Virus record (IMG/VR): IMGVR_UViG_3300001865_000266
Span: 1 to 43,168 of that record
Reading direction: 5' to 3' (one strand)
Origin: a virus
Length of the DNA: 43,168 nucleotides
In this document: piece by piece, positions 1,426 to 39,567 of the stretch
How positions within the stretch are numbered: the first letter of the stretch is position 1
Layout of the letters: each line of letters opens with the position of its first letter
The notes under the pieces: model-generated
Seen by the model: the letters and a program-made list of their open reading frames with translations, nothing else
Databases searched by the model: none
Told to the model about the DNA's origin: nothing
Made by a program: the position numbers and the translations under genes

Positions 1426-1648
1426 TTACATCTCCCCCTATCCCATTTATCTGTTCATATGTGTCTGCATCAAACCACATTATCCATTTACTGCTTTGAA
1501 CCTTAATTGTGCCTAAGTAAAATCCTTCTGTCACAATTTCTGCATTTCTGACAATTGTAGGTAAATCAAATTCAGGTAAATGTGCTTCATGGATAAATGC
1601 GCCTACAACGAGTTCTAAACGATCAAAATCAATAGTTATGTCTGTCAA
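1418..1648 (-). CDS. Hypothetical protein
   Basis: 76-aa ORF, TTG start after GGAGG SD, overlaps next gene. Confidence 0.55.
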   Translation of the reverse strand: MTDITIDFDRLELVVGAFIHEAHLPEFDLPTIVRNAEIVTEGFYLGTIKVQSSKWIMWFDADTYEQINGIGGDVNG

Positions 1649-9569: not shown

Positions 9570-12053
9570 CTAAGCAGATCTTCCATTTATTATATTTTCT
9601 TGATTTAGCTGTTTAACCCATCCCATTAAATGATCGGCTGTCTCTTTATCTGCTACTTTTCCAATAGTAATGTTATAATTGTGTTCGTGTTTACTTGCTG
9701 TATTTGTGATACTTTTTGTAATTCCTTTTGTTGTACTGTTTAACATATCTCCGCCTGAAGCATTTGCATTATCTCCTCCACGAGCTCCACCAGTCATCCT
9801 ATTCACAATCGCATCTAATATTTCACCTGGTGAAGGTATACTCCAATGCAACCAATCAATGAACTGTGCAACCCTATTCAAAACATCTGCAGCTCCTGGA
9901 ATGCTCCAAAGTAGTTGTGTTATATAATCTCCAATCTTCTGAATTATATTTGGTATTGAAGGGATCTTCCAGATCAGGTCATGAATAAATGTAGCAATTC
10001 TTTGGATTATCTGTTGAACTGTTGGGATCTTCCAATTTAGCATTGGAATTTTAGATTTGAGCATGTTTATGATGTCTGTAACAGTAGGAAACTTGAAACG
10101 TGACATATCGAGCATTCCATTCTTACCAAATATATCATTACCTATGCTCTTGTTTCCACCAGTTCCAGCAGCACTCGCAGGTTTAGGCAGTAAGCCCCCA
10201 AGAAGTCCCCCTAATCCTCCACCTTGTAAAAAGTCAGGGGTCTTAAATGCGTTTCCTGTTAACCAATCTCTTGCACCAGCTAAACTAGGAATTTTAAGCC
10301 CACTAAATCCTCCACTTATATCTCCCCAGTTACTTTGTAACCCTTTTATAACATTAAGAGGGGCCAACGCCCCAGATAATGGGGAATCTTTAAGTGCTGA
10401 TCCAAATCCACTTATTCCTCCACCAATCCAACTTAATCCACTTCCTAATTTTCCATAATTTGAAAATTCTGTTTTCTCCTGATCAACCCATGATCCCCCA
10501 CCAAATTTACCTGTTGAAATTGTAGACATCAATAAAGGTAGAGGTAATCCTTTTCCAAATGCTGAAACTCCTCCAGCAATTGAACGTCCCATGTCACCAG
10601 TTCTACCAAATAAATCTGAACCAAAATCCATTGCGTTATATGCATCAGCTACAGCATAAGCTCCAGGTATAGCTACTGCAGCCGCATCTTGTAATGAAAA
10701 TTTTTTTGTTGGATTCGTTGGAGATCCAGGAGTTCCAGTTGTTCCTCCACAAACTGTTTTACTTGTAGTAATACATTCTTTAGGTGCACAAGGGGTTTTG
10801 TTTAATATGTTAAGTGCATCTGTTATTCCTGAGATTCCATCCTTAGCATTTTTGAGAAGAATATAAACTCCACCAAAGGCCATTACAGCAGCCACGGCCA
10901 AAGGGGCTACCAATAGAATATCTTTTATTGGACCGGGCAATGCTTGGAATCCATGAAGAATTCCTGCTAAAATTGGGAATGCTGCAGTACCAAAATCTTT
11001 TAAGATTGGAATTATTTCATATCCTACACCTGTAATAAATTGAGACCATAAATTGCTTAACTGAGCCATTATTCCTTGATAAGAATGTTTATAGGCCTCA
11101 TTTGCAGCTGCACCATTTTGAAGTGCAACGGTTTGAGTTAATAAATTACTTCTCTGTTCAGTAGTTAAGTTAGCCCAGTCTTTCATTGTGAGATTGTTCT
11201 GCTTAAGGACATCATTGAACTTATTAGTATCCACACCAGCAGTGGCTAGAGTCTTAACAAGTAAAGTGGGCTTGTTAATCATGTTGGTCCATGCTTCTGA
11301 AACTGTGTTAAAACCTGCTGGATCTCCAGGATATTTAATCATTGCAAGGGCACTCATGGCCTCTACAGAACTTTGCTGGATCTGCTTGTTTACTACACCC
11401 ACTCTTGAAAGATTACCTATTGCACTTATGATGTCTCCACGAGTTCGGGCCGTGTCTGATTGAATAGAATCAATCATTGAAGAATATTCAGCTTTGACAG
11501 CTTCCATTTCAGTTCCAGATCTACCAAGTGCAACTGTAAGTCTACCCCAATTCTGTTCAGATTGTTCAGCAGATTTAACACCCATATAAGCAATGACGCC
11601 TTCAGCTGCAACAATGGCTCCAGCACCTACGAGTAATCCTTGGCCTACTTGGGTCATTGTTAATCCAAGTTTATTGACAGCACCTTCAACACGGCCAACT
11701 TGGGGAACTGCAGCTGCCATCTTAGCATTTGCAACTTCCATATCAACCCCCATCTGAGATAAACGGCTGATATCCATGCCTCGCATAGCTGGTGTTAACC
11801 CACCTACAACAGCAGATTCAGCAGCCACGGCTTCTAGTTGAAATTGGTTTAAAGCCAAATTTGCCTTTGCCATGTTTTGCTCAGCAAGTGTCATCCCCTT
11901 CGATGTGTTGTTACCCATACCTACCATTGTTGCAGCACTTTGGGCTTCCATGGCACTCATGGCAGCTTGGGATTCTACAAGTGAGGCGTTGAGAGATGTG
12001 AATCCTCCACCTTCGTAGATAGACCTTATGTTGATAAGGAGTTCTTCTAGCAT
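9570..12053 (-). CDS. Tape measure protein
   Basis: Ala/Gly-rich helical protein, hydrophobic segments, 21-aa WxIP repeats, follows tail chaperone. Confidence 0.9.
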   Translation of the reverse strand: MLEELLINIRSIYEGGGFTSLNASLVESQAAMSAMEAQSAATMVGMGNNTSKGMTLAEQNMAKANLALNQFQLEAVAAESAVVGGLTPAMRGMDISRLSQMGVDMEVANAKMAAAVPQVGRVEGAVNKLGLTMTQVGQGLLVGAGAIVAAEGVIAYMGVKSAEQSEQNWGRLTVALGRSGTEMEAVKAEYSSMIDSIQSDTARTRGDIISAIGNLSRVGVVNKQIQQSSVEAMSALAMIKYPGDPAGFNTVSEAWTNMINKPTLLVKTLATAGVDTNKFNDVLKQNNLTMKDWANLTTEQRSNLLTQTVALQNGAAANEAYKHSYQGIMAQLSNLWSQFITGVGYEIIPILKDFGTAAFPILAGILHGFQALPGPIKDILLVAPLAVAAVMAFGGVYILLKNAKDGISGITDALNILNKTPCAPKECITTSKTVCGGTTGTPGSPTNPTKKFSLQDAAAVAIPGAYAVADAYNAMDFGSDLFGRTGDMGRSIAGGVSAFGKGLPLPLLMSTISTGKFGGGSWVDQEKTEFSNYGKLGSGLSWIGGGISGFGSALKDSPLSGALAPLNVIKGLQSNWGDISGGFSGLKIPSLAGARDWLTGNAFKTPDFLQGGGLGGLLGGLLPKPASAAGTGGNKSIGNDIFGKNGMLDMSRFKFPTVTDIINMLKSKIPMLNWKIPTVQQIIQRIATFIHDLIWKIPSIPNIIQKIGDYITQLLWSIPGAADVLNRVAQFIDWLHWSIPSPGEILDAIVNRMTGGARGGDNANASGGDMLNSTTKGITKSITNTASKHEHNYNITIGKVADKETADHLMGWVKQLNQENIINGRSA

Positions 12054-26464: not shown

Positions 26465-26690
26465 AAAAATAAAAGATTGTGGAGGTTGAAAGATTTACCA
26501 ATAAGATTAGGTAAACTCCACAATCCTGTAAAAATAAAGAGATTGAGGGAACATAAATCAGGTGGTTTTGGTGATTAAATGAAACAAAAAATGGTTTCCC
26601 TCAACTCTGAAATAAAAATTAAAGATGGTAGTTGGGGTTTTTTAAACCCCTACGAAATGAGTTCTGCATGAGGTAACTACCCTTTGAATG
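26465..26690 (-). terminator. Three tandem stem-loops each followed by a U-tract (terminators or small RNAs)
   Basis: Inverted repeats GATTGTGGAG/CTCCACAATC, GAGATTGAGGGAAC/GTTTCCCTCAACTC, GGTAGTT/AACTACC, each preceded on + by an A-rich tract. Confidence 0.6.
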
Positions 26691-35618: not shown

Positions 35619-35932
35619 TTGCTCACCATGGCCTGTTTAGTATCTACTTTAAAGGTGGCTTGTGGACCTTTAACGTTCCTTAATTTTGCAATATAAAATA
35701 AAGCTGCATAACAATGTTTACAAAGAAAACTGCCATTTTTACTGTTTCCTTCACGTTGAAATCTGAATTCATAATCCTCACAAGTATTGCACCTGGCCAC
35801 CCCATCAACTATAGAAACAAGATAATCTGTAGGGCCACTTGTGACCTGGACCTGGATCTCTTCATCATCCTCAAAAATTAACGAACACTTACCTTGATGA
35901 TACAACCTATAACCTGCATCTAAACGCTTCAT
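35615..35932 (-). CDS. SWIM Zn-finger protein
   Basis: YLVSI...ARCNTCEDYEFR...LCKHCYAAL. Confidence 0.8.
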   Translation of the reverse strand: MKRLDAGYRLYHQGKCSLIFEDDEEIQVQVTSGPTDYLVSIVDGVARCNTCEDYEFRFQREGNSKNGSFLCKHCYAALFYIAKLRNVKGPQATFKVDTKQAMVSK

Positions 35933-36264
35933 GATTTGTTCTCCATGTCCACATGGATGTGGCTTTGTTTAACTAAAGATTCTTGATGTTTAATCTCCAA
36001 TACATTGATTAATCGACGTATCTCATCAGGACTCATTGCAGTATTTATAATTCGTTCAATTTGTTGTTCTAAATTTTCAAGTGCCTTTGTATATCCATAT
36101 ATCCCAATATCACACTCTTCATAAAGCTCATCAATCCAATGTGCTGCCTTATCATAATCTCCATTTCGATTAAAATTTTTCTCCCAAATATGTCTAAGAA
36201 CTGATTTAATTTGACCAAATTCTTCTTGATTTAAATCATTTATTCTGATAACTAAACATCTCAA
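35929..36264 (-). CDS. Hypothetical protein
   Basis: TTG 36264 after GGAGG SD. Confidence 0.55.
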   Translation of the reverse strand: MRCLVIRINDLNQEEFGQIKSVLRHIWEKNFNRNGDYDKAAHWIDELYEECDIGIYGYTKALENLEQQIERIINTAMSPDEIRRLINVLEIKHQESLVKQSHIHVDMENKS

Positions 36265-36295
36265 AACAAAACCTCCTAATTTAGACAATAAAAAA

Positions 36296-36387
36296 TGGAC
36301 GACCCTGGAATCGAACCAGGAATTAAATTTACGATTGAATAATTGTCGTTGTGTCTTTTGAGTTTACAAGATAACCCTGTGCCGTCC
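36296..36387 (-). ncRNA. tRNA-mimic RNA 1 (acceptor stem plus T-arm, non-tRNA interior)
   Basis: GGACGGC/GTCGTCC-A acceptor; CCTGG TTCGATT CCAGG T-arm. Confidence 0.65.
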
Positions 36388-36438
36388 TAAAAAAATAGTT
36401 GGGGGGTAGGGGACAGTTTGTGTCAGTCCCTGTGACGA

Positions 36439-36514
36439 AGGCCGTGGTCGGATTTGAACCGGCGATCTGCTGCTCACAAGGCAGCCGCATTAAACCAGAC
36501 TATGCTACACGACC
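36439..36514 (-). tRNA. tRNA-Thr(UGU), atypical (G37, C50:A64), no encoded CCA
   Basis: Cloverleaf GGTCGTG/CACGGCC, D GCAT/ATGC, anticodon arm GCTGC-CTTGTGA-GCAGC, T-loop TTCAAAT. Confidence 0.8.
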
Positions 36515-36594: not shown

Positions 36595-36707
36595 GAGGGG
36601 ATTGTAGGAGAAAAGATATTTTTGGTAGACATCACCAAATCAAAAAGTTCCCTTATATTCATATAAAATTGGAGGTATTACATGCAAAACCTACAAATCC
36701 TTTCCTC
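36595..36707 (-). ncRNA. Stem-loop RNA with anti-Shine-Dalgarno loop
   Basis: GAGGGGATTGTAGG/CCTACAAATCCTTTCCTC inverted repeat; minus-strand loop contains AATACCTCCAATTTT. Confidence 0.5.
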
Positions 36708-39155: not shown

Positions 39156-39221
39156 CTAATCACCAACTATGTTTTTTTAAACTAAACAAAACTCAGAACA
39201 CGCGTCTGAGAAATAAAGAAT

Positions 39222-39357
39222 TGGACAGTCTGGGATTCGAACCCAGGTAACAATTTGGCGTAGGATAGGTTAGGATTAAATTACGGCTATTAATTTAATC
39301 CATGGTGTAAAAGATCAAAAAACAAGAAATAATTTAAGTTACCCACCAAGGACCGTC
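39222..39357 (-). ncRNA. tRNA-mimic RNA 2 (acceptor stem plus T-arm around a structured insert of about 100 nt)
   Basis: GGACGGT/ACTGTCC-A acceptor; CTGGG TTCGAAT CCCAG T-arm; GTAAC/GTTAC helix; GGATTAAATTA/TAATTTAATCC hairpin. Confidence 0.65.
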
Positions 39358-39567
39358 CAAAAGAAATAAAAATATAAATTTTGTGTTCACTATTTCACTC
39401 ATCGCCGGAAGCCTTTTTTTATGTGTAATTCCCGTGTCCATCACCTGTGGTTCATTTTGGATATTAGGTTTTCGCTTCAAACACACATCCTTAAGACACT
39501 TACAAATTCCGTCCAGGTCTATCCTGAACCCAAGTGCCTATGACTTTTAACTCTCTATATTATAGTT

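What the first reader, a model, noticed from the sequence alone, without database searches (positions are those of the whole stretch)
36296..36387. tRNA-mimic RNA 1
A 92-nt element with a 7-bp acceptor stem, A discriminator and canonical T-arm, but no U8, D-arm or proper anticodon arm. It is flanked by U-tracts and lies just 5' of a gene's SD. It shares the GGACGG...GTCC-A stem with mimic 2 while the interior differs.
Basis: partly seen in the sequence, partly recalled or inferred. Interest (0 to 1): 0.7.

Follow-up and report, generated by a model that had tools for sequence, protein, structure and literature searches.

The report
Anticodon-less tRNA-like RNA, methanogen virus
A virus integrated in a methane-producing archaeon carries a 92-base gene that keeps only the part of a tRNA that tRNA-processing enzymes grip, with no anticodon; it belongs to a conserved family of such look-alikes in methanogen viruses that I found described in no paper, so it is probably a working non-coding RNA and not a broken tRNA.

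Summary
Window 36387-36296 has a 7-bp acceptor stem with one G-U pair, a 5-bp T-stem, a UUCGAUU T-loop and discriminator A. A U7 tract lies before it and a U6 tract after it, and AGGAGG lies 19 nt downstream. A 137-nt sibling sits at 39358-39222.

ARAGORN and Rfam do not call either one a tRNA. No bulge-helix-bulge intron and no single deletion turns either into a cloverleaf.

The window is a provirus of Methanobacteriaceae. Distantly related proviruses of that family (terminase 23% identical) carry singletons and tandem rows of up to five units with the same build. Each has a 7-bp acceptor stem, an A-N-A-G-G motif, a variable insert of 25-395 nt, a T-arm and A73.

A covariance model built only from those other viruses finds the flagged element at exactly its coordinates (32.6 bits, E about 1e-4). 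It does not hit the real tRNA-Thr next door.

Among orthologous rows the tRNA-like frame is 96-100% identical, while the inserts drift like spacers. Selection therefore acts on the frame.

Best reading: a non-decoding tRNA-like RNA cut out by RNase P and tRNase Z and CCA-tailed. Its downstream role is open. No expression data were found.

This scan noted similar rows earlier on other DNA. My paper searches found no description.

The parts
36296..36387 (-). e1: the flagged 92-nt tRNA-like element (acceptor stem, ACAGG motif, 60-nt interior, T-arm, A73)
   Evidence: Sequence. Fold. Covariance model R1, built from other viruses, hits 36296-36387(-) at 32.6 bits, E 1.2e-4. Not called a tRNA.
36381..36387 (-). 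e1 acceptor 5' strand, GGACGGC
   Evidence: Pairs 7/7 with 36297-36303; one pair is G-U, which pairs only on this strand.
36376..36380 (-). ACAGG: the A-N-A-G-G motif that follows the acceptor strand in most family members seen
   Evidence: The GG may stand in for D-loop G18 G19; this is inference.
36304..36320 (-). e1 T-arm: CCTGG, TTCGATT, CCAGG
   Evidence: The same 17-mer occurs in a unit of provirus G281:C25.
36296..36303 (-). e1 acceptor 3' strand GTCGTCC plus discriminator A; no encoded CCA
36389..36395 (-). T7 tract 1 nt upstream of e1
   Evidence: Oligo-T is an archaeal termination signal (established knowledge). T-runs also precede singleton units in other viruses.
36290..36295 (-). 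T6 tract directly after the discriminator
36439..36514 (-). Genuine tRNA-Thr(UGU), 51 nt upstream of e1 on the same strand
   Evidence: ARAGORN. Rfam tRNA 59.5 bits.
35929..36277 (-). Downstream gene: AGGAGG at 36277-36272, TTG start at 36264, 111 aa, no Pfam family
39222..39358 (-). e2: 137-nt sibling with the same GGACGG...GTCC-A frame, a 105-nt interior and an internal 11-bp hairpin (39301-39273)
   Evidence: R1 matches only its 3' part (14.9 bits). It lacks the A-N-A-G-G motif.
26626..26681 (-). Possible third, degenerate member: GGTAGTT ... GGGGT TTAAAAA ACCCC AACTACC A
   Evidence: R1 14.9 bits, E 0.9. Sequence. Weak and not counted as a member.

Best explanation
e1 is a gene for a non-decoding tRNA-like RNA. 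It keeps the acceptor/T-arm minihelix, A73 and a short GG motif after the acceptor strand. The D and anticodon arms are replaced by a 60-nt AT-rich insert.

It belongs to a family found so far only in (pro)viruses of Methanobacteriaceae. Members occur singly or in tandem rows. Selection holds the tRNA-like frame, and the insert is free to vary in sequence and in length (25-395 nt).

Inferred mechanism:
- The host's RNase P cuts at G1 (36387).
- tRNase Z cuts after A73 (36296).
- The CCA-adding enzyme tails the product, since no CCA is encoded. T-loop modification enzymes may act on it too.
- The result would be a stable tRNA-shaped RNA of about 95 nt that cannot read codons.
- The same cuts would sever the early transcript between tRNA-Thr and the next gene's ribosome-binding site.

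The purpose is not shown. Because the frame is conserved and the insert is not, I favour a role that needs only the frame. One option is RNA-end formation or stabilisation, as with plant mitochondrial t-elements and mascRNA. The other is mass supply of a minihelix that occupies a host tRNA-binding factor.

Shown here: the structure, family membership, covariation, the conservation pattern and the viral setting. Inferred: transcription, processing, CCA addition and function.
For: 1. Structure and statistics.
- e1 has 7/7 acceptor pairs and 5/5 T-stem pairs, a consensus T-loop and A73.
- Two such elements are in the window against 0.0067 expected.

2. Not a decoding tRNA.
- ARAGORN in all modes and Rfam are negative.
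- There is no BHB motif and no rescuing deletion.

3. Family.
- My scanner finds the same build in provirus G281:C25 (three units).
- It also finds it in nine IMG/VR contigs whose terminase is 80-90% identical to that provirus's, in tandem rows of up to five units plus singletons.
- Provirus G282:C1 has a row of four units 7.7 kb upstream of a terminase homologue.
- I counted twelve different acceptor-stem sequences, all fully paired.

4. Independent membership test.
- Model R1 was built without e1 or e2.
- It hits e1 end to end at exactly the flagged coordinates (32.6 bits, E 1.2e-4, the top hit in the window).
- It does not hit the real tRNA-Thr and gave no hit in three of the five host genomes searched whole, so it is not a general tRNA model.

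5. Covariation.
- Six of 12 pairs have changes on both sides, and 0 of 500 shuffles reach this.
- e1 and e2 differ by a compensatory C-G to U-A change at pair 7:66 and by swapped G-U positions.

6. Selection on the frame.
- In seven orthologous rows the frame is 96-100% identical.
- Inserts are 50-92% identical with indels, like the flanks (67-98%).
- Terminase DNA is 94% identical.

7. RNA-level reading.
- The G-U pairs pair only on the gene-sense strand.
- All units lie on the coding strand.

8. Viral and archaeal setting.
- The window has a Pei pseudomurein endoisopeptidase domain and tail, portal, terminase and integrase genes.
- Relatives occur in a Methanobacteriaceae MAG.
- No other genome among 150 Methanobacteriaceae sampled had a match.

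9. Known analogues.
- t-elements are cut by RNase P and Z, CCA-tailed and not aminoacylated (PMC1920247; bioRxiv 10.1101/2024.09.09.612099).
- Rfam's mascRNA and tmRNA models (tmRNA's ends only) give sub-threshold matches to units of the other virus group.
Against: - No RNA evidence exists for e1 or any family member, so transcription and processing are inference.
- A T7 tract, an archaeal termination signal, sits between tRNA-Thr and e1. I see no TATA-like box in the 51-nt spacer, so e1 may get only read-through transcription. The nearest TATA-like box, at 36660-36669, lies about 150 nt upstream of tRNA-Thr.
- e1 has no diverged orthologue. Six contigs from other assemblies carry it (five of them e2 as well), always identical, so selection on e1 itself is inferred from its paralogue e2 and from the other virus lineage.
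- The units used for covariation were picked by a scanner that demands full pairing, so the 100% paired figure is circular. Only the compensatory changes and the model test are independent.
- e2 lacks the A-N-A-G-G motif and fits the model poorly.
- Why neutral-looking inserts are kept at all is unexplained.
Confidence: 0.6

Rival explanations
1. A frame-only decoy. The virus makes many copies of the tRNA minihelix to occupy a host factor that binds the acceptor/T-arm of tRNAs, either a tRNA-directed defence nuclease or a maturation enzyme, and so protects real tRNAs or disturbs the host. This shares the processing steps of the best explanation and differs only in purpose.
For: Only the frame is conserved and the inserts drift. 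Rows of up to five tandem units suggest dosage. A real tRNA gene lies next to e1. The elements are confined to viruses.
Against: No candidate target is known in Methanobacteriaceae. The known tRNA-directed defence nucleases I am aware of mostly cut anticodon loops, which these RNAs lack (own knowledge). Nothing tested here bears on binding.
Confidence: 0.2
2. A decayed tRNA pseudogene with no present function: a former viral tRNA gene whose middle has been overwritten by AT-biased mutation.
For: The interior is AT-rich and lacks convincing structure. A T7 terminator lies just upstream and no promoter is evident. Relatives of this virus carry ordinary tRNA genes in the same early region (tRNA-Ser in L002/L004).
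Against: Decay would hit the acceptor and T stems as well. In the orthologous rows compared those stems are 96-100% identical while inserts and spacers vary. Twelve different acceptor stems are all fully paired with compensatory changes. e1 and e2 keep the frame while their interiors are unrelated.
Confidence: 0.1
3. A real decoding tRNA with an unusual intron or reduced arms, such as an archaeal BHB intron at a non-canonical site or an armless tRNA.
For: The host is an archaeon, where tRNA introns are common. ARAGORN at a very lax threshold (-ps80) reads e2 as tRNA-Trp with a 69-nt intron.
Against: e1 has no BHB motif and the other units have none that is convincing. No single deletion of 5-30 nt in e1, or 40-75 nt in e2, gives a tRNA at normal stringency; at lax thresholds the proposed anticodons are inconsistent. 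Mitochondrial armless mode is negative for 13 units. Family members have inserts from 25 to 395 nt with no shared anticodon-like loop.
Confidence: 0.05
4. A DNA-level site: an integrase attachment site copied from a tRNA gene's 3' end, a recombination site, or origin repeats.
For: Integrases often use tRNA 3' ends as attachment sites. The rows sit in long non-coding regions between gene modules.
Against: An att-type copy holds only the 3' part of a tRNA. Here the 5' acceptor strand is present and co-varies with the 3' strand. G-U pairs would be C-A mismatches on the other strand. Every unit is on the coding strand and keeps the tRNA T-loop consensus and A73.
Confidence: 0.05

Closest known systems
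t-elements of plant mitochondria (PMC1920247; bioRxiv 10.1101/2024.09.09.612099)
   Same: Both are tRNA-like sequences embedded in transcripts next to genes. t-elements are cut by RNase P and RNase Z, CCA-tailed and not aminoacylated, and they define mRNA ends. e1 likewise sits between a tRNA and the next gene's ribosome-binding site.
   Different: t-elements are recognisable homologues of whole tRNA genes with tRNA-like secondary structure. This family has no D or anticodon arm, accepts inserts of 25-395 nt, forms tandem rows and is viral and archaeal. Processing is shown for t-elements and not shown here.
mascRNA / MEN-beta tRNA-like RNAs of vertebrates (Rfam RF01684)
   Same: Both are a small tRNA-shaped RNA with an acceptor stem and T-arm and no decoding role. 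From my own knowledge, mascRNA is released by RNase P and RNase Z and CCA-tailed. A unit of the other virus group gives a sub-threshold match (22.4 bits against gathering score 42.5).
   Different: The match is below Rfam's threshold and e1 itself gave no match. mascRNA serves 3'-end formation of a long non-coding RNA in animal nuclei. There is no homology.
tRNA-like domain of tmRNA (Rfam RF00023)
   Same: Both have an acceptor stem plus T-arm, joined by a short purine-rich remnant of the D-loop, with a large insert in place of the anticodon region. Rfam's tmRNA model aligns only its two ends to units of the other virus group (25.9 bits against 47).
   Different: There is no G3-U70 alanine identity pair (e1 has A3-U70), no tag reading frame and no pseudoknots. 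Archaea lack tmRNA and SmpB (own knowledge). e1 matches only 11 nt of the T-loop (7.1 bits).
Murid gammaherpesvirus 68 tRNA-like/pre-miRNA genes and engineered tRNA scaffolds (own knowledge, not tested here)
   Same: A virus uses a non-aminoacylated tRNA-shaped module, so that host tRNA enzymes release and stabilise small RNAs from a row of units.
   Different: In those cases the cargo lies outside the tRNA (MHV68) or replaces only the anticodon arm (engineered scaffolds). The cargo there is the functional part, whereas here the insert evolves like spacer.
Intron-containing archaeal tRNA genes (bulge-helix-bulge introns)
   Same: Both have an archaeal host, a tRNA frame interrupted by extra sequence, and no encoded CCA.
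   Different: There is no BHB motif and no cloverleaf after any single excision.

Membership tests
Canonical tRNA (Rfam RF00005) | 7-bp acceptor stem, 5-bp T-stem with a 7-nt T-loop, and a discriminator base | tested here: met
   7/7 and 5/5 pairs, loop TTCGATT, A73.
Canonical tRNA (Rfam RF00005) | D-arm and anticodon arm with a 7-nt loop (U33, anticodon), plus U8 | tested here: not met
   No Rfam tRNA match even at E up to 10. ARAGORN negative in default, intron, pseudogene and mitochondrial modes. Position 8 is A.
Archaeal intron-containing tRNA | A bulge-helix-bulge motif (3-nt bulge, 4-bp helix, 3-nt bulge) at the exon-intron joints | tested here: not met
   My BHB search finds none in e1.
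Archaeal intron-containing tRNA | Removing the intron yields a cloverleaf tRNA | tested here: not met
   All 1157 single deletions of 5-30 nt gave no ARAGORN hit at default or -ps95. Two introns were not tested.
tRNA-like frame RNAs of Methanobacteriaceae viruses (defined here, model R1) | Fits a covariance model built from members in other viruses | tested here: met
   36296-36387(-), 32.6 bits, E 1.2e-4, model positions 1-81 of 81. E-values from this model are rough.
tRNA-like frame RNAs of Methanobacteriaceae viruses (defined here, model R1) | A-N-A-G-G directly after the 5' acceptor strand, T-loop TTCRAWT, and discriminator A | tested here: met
   e1 has ACAGG, TTCGATT and A. Family pattern. 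e2 lacks the first motif.
tRNA-like frame RNAs of Methanobacteriaceae viruses (defined here, model R1) | Lies in a (pro)virus of Methanobacteriaceae, on the coding strand, in an intergenic gap | tested here: met
   Pei domain, tail, portal, terminase and integrase genes in the window. A relative occurs in a Methanobacteriaceae MAG. All window genes are on the minus strand.
t-elements / mascRNA-type processing modules | Cleaved in vivo by RNase P at the 5' end and RNase Z at the 3' end, and CCA-tailed | not testable with these tools
   No RNA run holds the stretch. Needs RNA-end mapping or enzyme assays.
tmRNA | G3-U70 pair, a tag-peptide reading frame, and pseudoknots | tested here: not met
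   e1 has A3-U70. ARAGORN finds no tmRNA. Rfam tmRNA gives 7.1 bits over 11 nt only.
tRNA-derived attachment site (att) fragment | A copy of a tRNA gene's 3' part only, identical to a host tRNA | tested here: not met
   The 5' acceptor strand is present and co-varies. In 314 Methanobacteriaceae genomes the T-arm with its two preceding bases (19 nt, up to one mismatch) matched only another unit of this family and four coding-region chance hits.

The most novel reading that the evidence does not exclude
Methanogen viruses carry a modular class of non-coding RNA that I found described in no paper. A minimal tRNA frame (acceptor/T-arm minihelix plus a GG elbow motif) tolerates any insert and is multiplied in rows. 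Its job would be to exploit or jam the host's tRNA-handling machinery, for instance as a decoy against a tRNA-directed defence still unknown in archaea, or as a viral RNA-punctuation system.
Probability: 0.3. Interest if true: 0.8.

Novelty: new variant of a known kind. Interest (0 to 1): 0.65.

Why it matters
Non-decoding tRNA look-alikes are known from plant mitochondria, animal nuclei, a herpesvirus and bacterial tmRNA. My paper searches found none reported for archaeal viruses.

The family is found here in two distantly related lineages of Methanobacteriaceae proviruses. Its frame is strictly conserved and its inserts vary freely, which says the tRNA-processing handle itself is what these viruses need.

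If the RNAs are made and processed, they give a defined substrate set for archaeal RNase P, tRNase Z and the CCA-adding enzyme. They would also be a natural tRNA scaffold for expressing RNAs in methanogens, and a lead to a possible virus-host conflict fought over tRNAs in archaea.

Ordinary tRNA finders miss every member, so the family is probably under-counted in viral catalogues.

Tried and rejected
- **Intron-bearing tRNA.** I ran ARAGORN with -i, -ps and -mt, deletion scans and a BHB search. At lax thresholds only inconsistent calls appear, so I rejected this.
- **Antisense regulator of the virus's own genes.** The longest complementary runs of the e1 and e2 interiors to the window's sense strand (11 nt Watson-Crick, 13-16 nt with G-U) are no longer than for shuffled interiors. 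Rejected for targets within this virus; host targets were not tested.
- **Diverged orthologues of e1.**
  - Phage GenBank records: no match.
  - Exact 25-mer in IMG/VR: none.
  - Neighbouring proteins in IMG/VR: none.
  - Metagenome and genome scans gave only distant relatives that lack the element (L011, L045, L056; L002-L004 carry a tRNA-Ser instead).
  - The copies in L005-L009 are identical.
- **BLAST of e1 against 314 Methanobacteriaceae genomes.** This gave only short, weak hits. One of them led to the family in G281.
- **Expression.** No RNA holder is listed for the stretch. The runs labelled RNA-Seq are probably DNA. They cover only a conserved piece of tRNA-Thr, the T-arm region of e2 and scattered gene fragments. 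This says nothing about expression.
- **Sigma-70 promoter and terminator scan.** Not run, because the host is an archaeon. My reading of TATA-like boxes upstream of units was inconclusive.
- **Earlier notes by sequence.** No look-alike stretch is on record for the L048 row.

Full report
**What is there**

The element lies on the minus strand, which carries all the long ORFs of the window but one. Read 5' to 3' from 36387 to 36296 it has these parts:
- GGACGGC, the 5' acceptor strand
- ACAGG
- a 55-nt AT-rich stretch
- CCTGG-TTCGATT-CCAGG, the T-arm
- GTCGTCC, the 3' acceptor strand
- A, the discriminator

The two acceptor strands pair 7/7, including one G-U pair. A T7 tract ends one base before the element. 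A T6 tract starts right after the discriminator. AGGAGG follows 19 nt downstream, ahead of a 111-aa ORF.

A genuine tRNA-Thr(UGU) lies 51 nt upstream, and it is the only tRNA that ARAGORN and Rfam find in the window.

A sibling, e2, runs from 39358 to 39222. It has nearly the same acceptor stem (GGACGGT paired with ACTGTCC) and a T-arm of CTGGG-TTCGAAT-CCCAG. Its 105-nt interior is unrelated to that of e1.

Dinucleotide shuffles of the window give 0.0067 complete elements of this kind per window, against two observed.

**It is not a decoding tRNA**
- Rfam's tRNA model gives no match to e1 even at E up to 10.
- ARAGORN is negative in default, intron, pseudogene and mitochondrial modes.
- None of 1157 single deletions of 5-30 nt makes e1 a tRNA at normal stringency. 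At lax thresholds the calls for e1 and e2 have inconsistent anticodons.
- My search for bulge-helix-bulge motifs finds none in e1.

**Host and setting**

The window is an IMG/VR provirus record of 33% G+C. It encodes these proteins:
- baseplate J
- a portal
- a large terminase
- an integrase
- a tail-associated protein with a pseudomurein endoisopeptidase (Pei, PF12386) domain

Pseudomurein is the wall polymer of Methanobacteriales.

The gene just upstream of tRNA-Thr has a homologue in a Methanobacteriaceae MAG. Identical copies of the provirus occur in bioreactor and sludge assemblies. One lies in a 535-kb contig next to a host transporter gene.

**A family**

A weak BLAST hit of e1 in Methanobacteriaceae genome G281 carried the identical T-arm. 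That hit has its own, different 7-bp acceptor stem 122 nt upstream.

I then wrote a scanner that looks for three things: a GC-rich 5-bp stem with a T-loop-like loop, a 7-bp complement upstream, and any discriminator. It found:
- three units in that contig, which is a provirus with terminase, portal and Mu-F genes;
- three to six units per contig, including tandem rows of up to five, in nine IMG/VR contigs whose terminase is 80-90% identical to G281's.

Model R1 later found a row of four units in provirus G282:C1, 7.7 kb upstream of a terminase homologue.

Every unit seen has G1-C72. All but one copy have discriminator A. Nearly all have a TTCRAWT loop, and most have A-N-A-G-G straight after the acceptor strand. 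The insert ranges from 25 to 395 nt.

I counted twelve different acceptor-stem sequences, and all are fully paired. ARAGORN calls none of the units a tRNA. Neighbouring units in a row alternate between GGTTCTG and GGTTGTG, each with its matching 3' strand.

The terminase of my window is only 23% identical to that of this group. The family therefore spans two distant virus lineages.

**Membership of e1**

I built covariance model R1 from 13 units of the other lineage only, giving it just the acceptor and T stems. Searched over the whole window without filters, its best hit is 36296-36387(-), end to end, at 32.6 bits and E 1.2e-4.
- The real tRNA-Thr is not hit.
- Three of the five host genomes searched whole give no hit at E 0.01 or below, so R1 is not a generic tRNA model.
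- No other genome among 150 Methanobacteriaceae sampled matched at E 0.001 or below, under stricter filters.
- e2 matches only in part (14.9 bits) because of its long insert and missing motif.
- A weak third candidate lies at 26626-26681(-).

**Selection**

On the 13-unit alignment, six of 12 pairs show changes on both sides, and no shuffle of 500 reaches this. The 100% pairing figure is partly circular, because the scanner demanded pairing. The compensatory changes and the R1 test are not circular.

In seven orthologous rows:

| Part | Identity |
|---|---|
| Acceptor 5' strand + A-N-A-G-G, and T-arm + 3' strand + A | 96-100% |
| Inserts | 50-92%, with indels |
| Flanks | 67-98% |
| Terminase DNA | 94% |

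Selection therefore holds the tRNA-like frame, not the insert.

The e1 and e2 interiors have no complementarity to the virus's own transcripts beyond shuffled controls. This argues against a guide or antisense role for the insert within this virus.

**How it most likely works**

The conserved part is what RNase P, tRNase Z, the CCA-adding enzyme and the T-loop modification enzymes recognise in a tRNA (established knowledge). The GG after the acceptor strand could stand in for D-loop G18 G19, which dock on the T-loop; that is inference.

I therefore expect excision at G1 and after A73, followed by CCA addition, giving a stable RNA that cannot decode. Those cuts would also separate tRNA-Thr and the upstream RNA from the next gene's ribosome-binding site.

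Plant mitochondrial t-elements behave this way. They are cut by RNase P and Z, CCA-tailed, base-modified and not aminoacylated.

Rfam's mascRNA model, and the two ends of its tmRNA model, give sub-threshold matches to units of the other lineage. This fits the architecture, but it does not make them members of those families.

The purpose remains open. My ranking is:
1. end formation or stabilisation
2. a frame-only decoy

Tandem rows of up to five units favour a dosage-type role. Singletons between genes, such as e1, favour punctuation.

**Weak points**
- No RNA data exist.
- The T7 tract before e1 is an archaeal termination signal, and I see no TATA-like box in the spacer. Similar T-runs precede singleton units in the other lineage, so the tract may be part of the design. 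This is unexplained.
- e1 has no diverged orthologue.

**Novelty**

Earlier notes of this scan describe similar rows of anticodon-less tRNA look-alikes in other archaeal virus DNA (e1-5348992, e1-5855547). The scan has thus met this kind before, on other sequence; a look-up by sequence found no shared stretch.

My paper searches found no published description.

I class it as a new variant of a known kind, the known kind being non-decoding tRNA-like RNAs handled by tRNA enzymes.

Noticed in passing
window 26626-26681 (-): A 56-nt element with a 7-bp acceptor-like stem (GGTAGTT paired with AACTACC), then A, and a hairpin GGGGT-TTAAAAA-ACCCC. Its 5' end resembles the smallest units of the other virus group (GGTTGTT ACC...). 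Model R1 gives only 14.9 bits, E 0.9. It may be a degenerate third member.
   Followed up: partly
L048 6358-6763 and orthologues in L049-L054: The first unit of each row has a 366-395-nt insert between GGGATTG-AAAGG and its T-arm, so the frame can enclose a very long insert. I did not check it for ORFs or structure.
   Followed up: partly
L048 14967-15025; L050 10878-10934: The smallest units are 57-59 nt: acceptor stem, a short D-arm-like ACCA...TGGT hairpin, and a T-arm, with no insert to speak of. They lie in the structural gene module after the portal and Mu-F genes. This suggests the frame alone is functional.
   Followed up: partly
window 36389-36395; L046 about 11840-11857; L061 about 1588-1598 (-): Singleton units are directly preceded by runs of 7-10 T, which should terminate archaeal transcription just before the unit. 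No explanation so far accounts for this.
   Followed up: no
window 36660-36669 (-): A TATA-like box (ATTTTATATG) lies about 150 nt upstream of tRNA-Thr, after a T7 run that follows the upstream gene. It may be the promoter of a tRNA-Thr/e1 unit.
   Followed up: no
L002 5337-5422; L004 5593-5678: Distant relatives of this provirus (upstream DNA-binding-like protein 44-45% identical) carry a normal tRNA-Ser(GCU) in the early region instead of tRNA-Thr plus e1.
   Followed up: partly
window about 36281, seen in sludge run X5 (table 7): A contig of a related strain departs from the window at 36281. It continues with a different T-arm and acceptor 3' strand (on the minus strand...GGTTCAATTCCTCGGTCGCTCA). 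The slot may therefore hold another tRNA or tRNA-like gene in relatives. A second contig covers e1 with 12 differences, but the letters were not available.
   Followed up: no
L034 about 1508 (G282:C1 near 973 kb): An orphan copy of the CCTGG-TTCGATT-CCAGG T-arm with no matching 5' acceptor strand within 1.2 kb and no tRNA call. It may be a tRNA 3' fragment of the att type.
   Followed up: no
L044 2396-2647; L048 7402-7656; L058 about 1765 onward: In the other virus group the rows always lie just upstream of a small, conserved, hydrophobic protein gene that opens the operon leading to the terminase.
   Followed up: no
window 39184-39210 (-): e2 is followed 11 nt later by a hairpin (CTCAGA...TCTGAG) and TTTTGTTT, a terminator-like end. 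e2 may therefore close a transcription unit.
   Followed up: no
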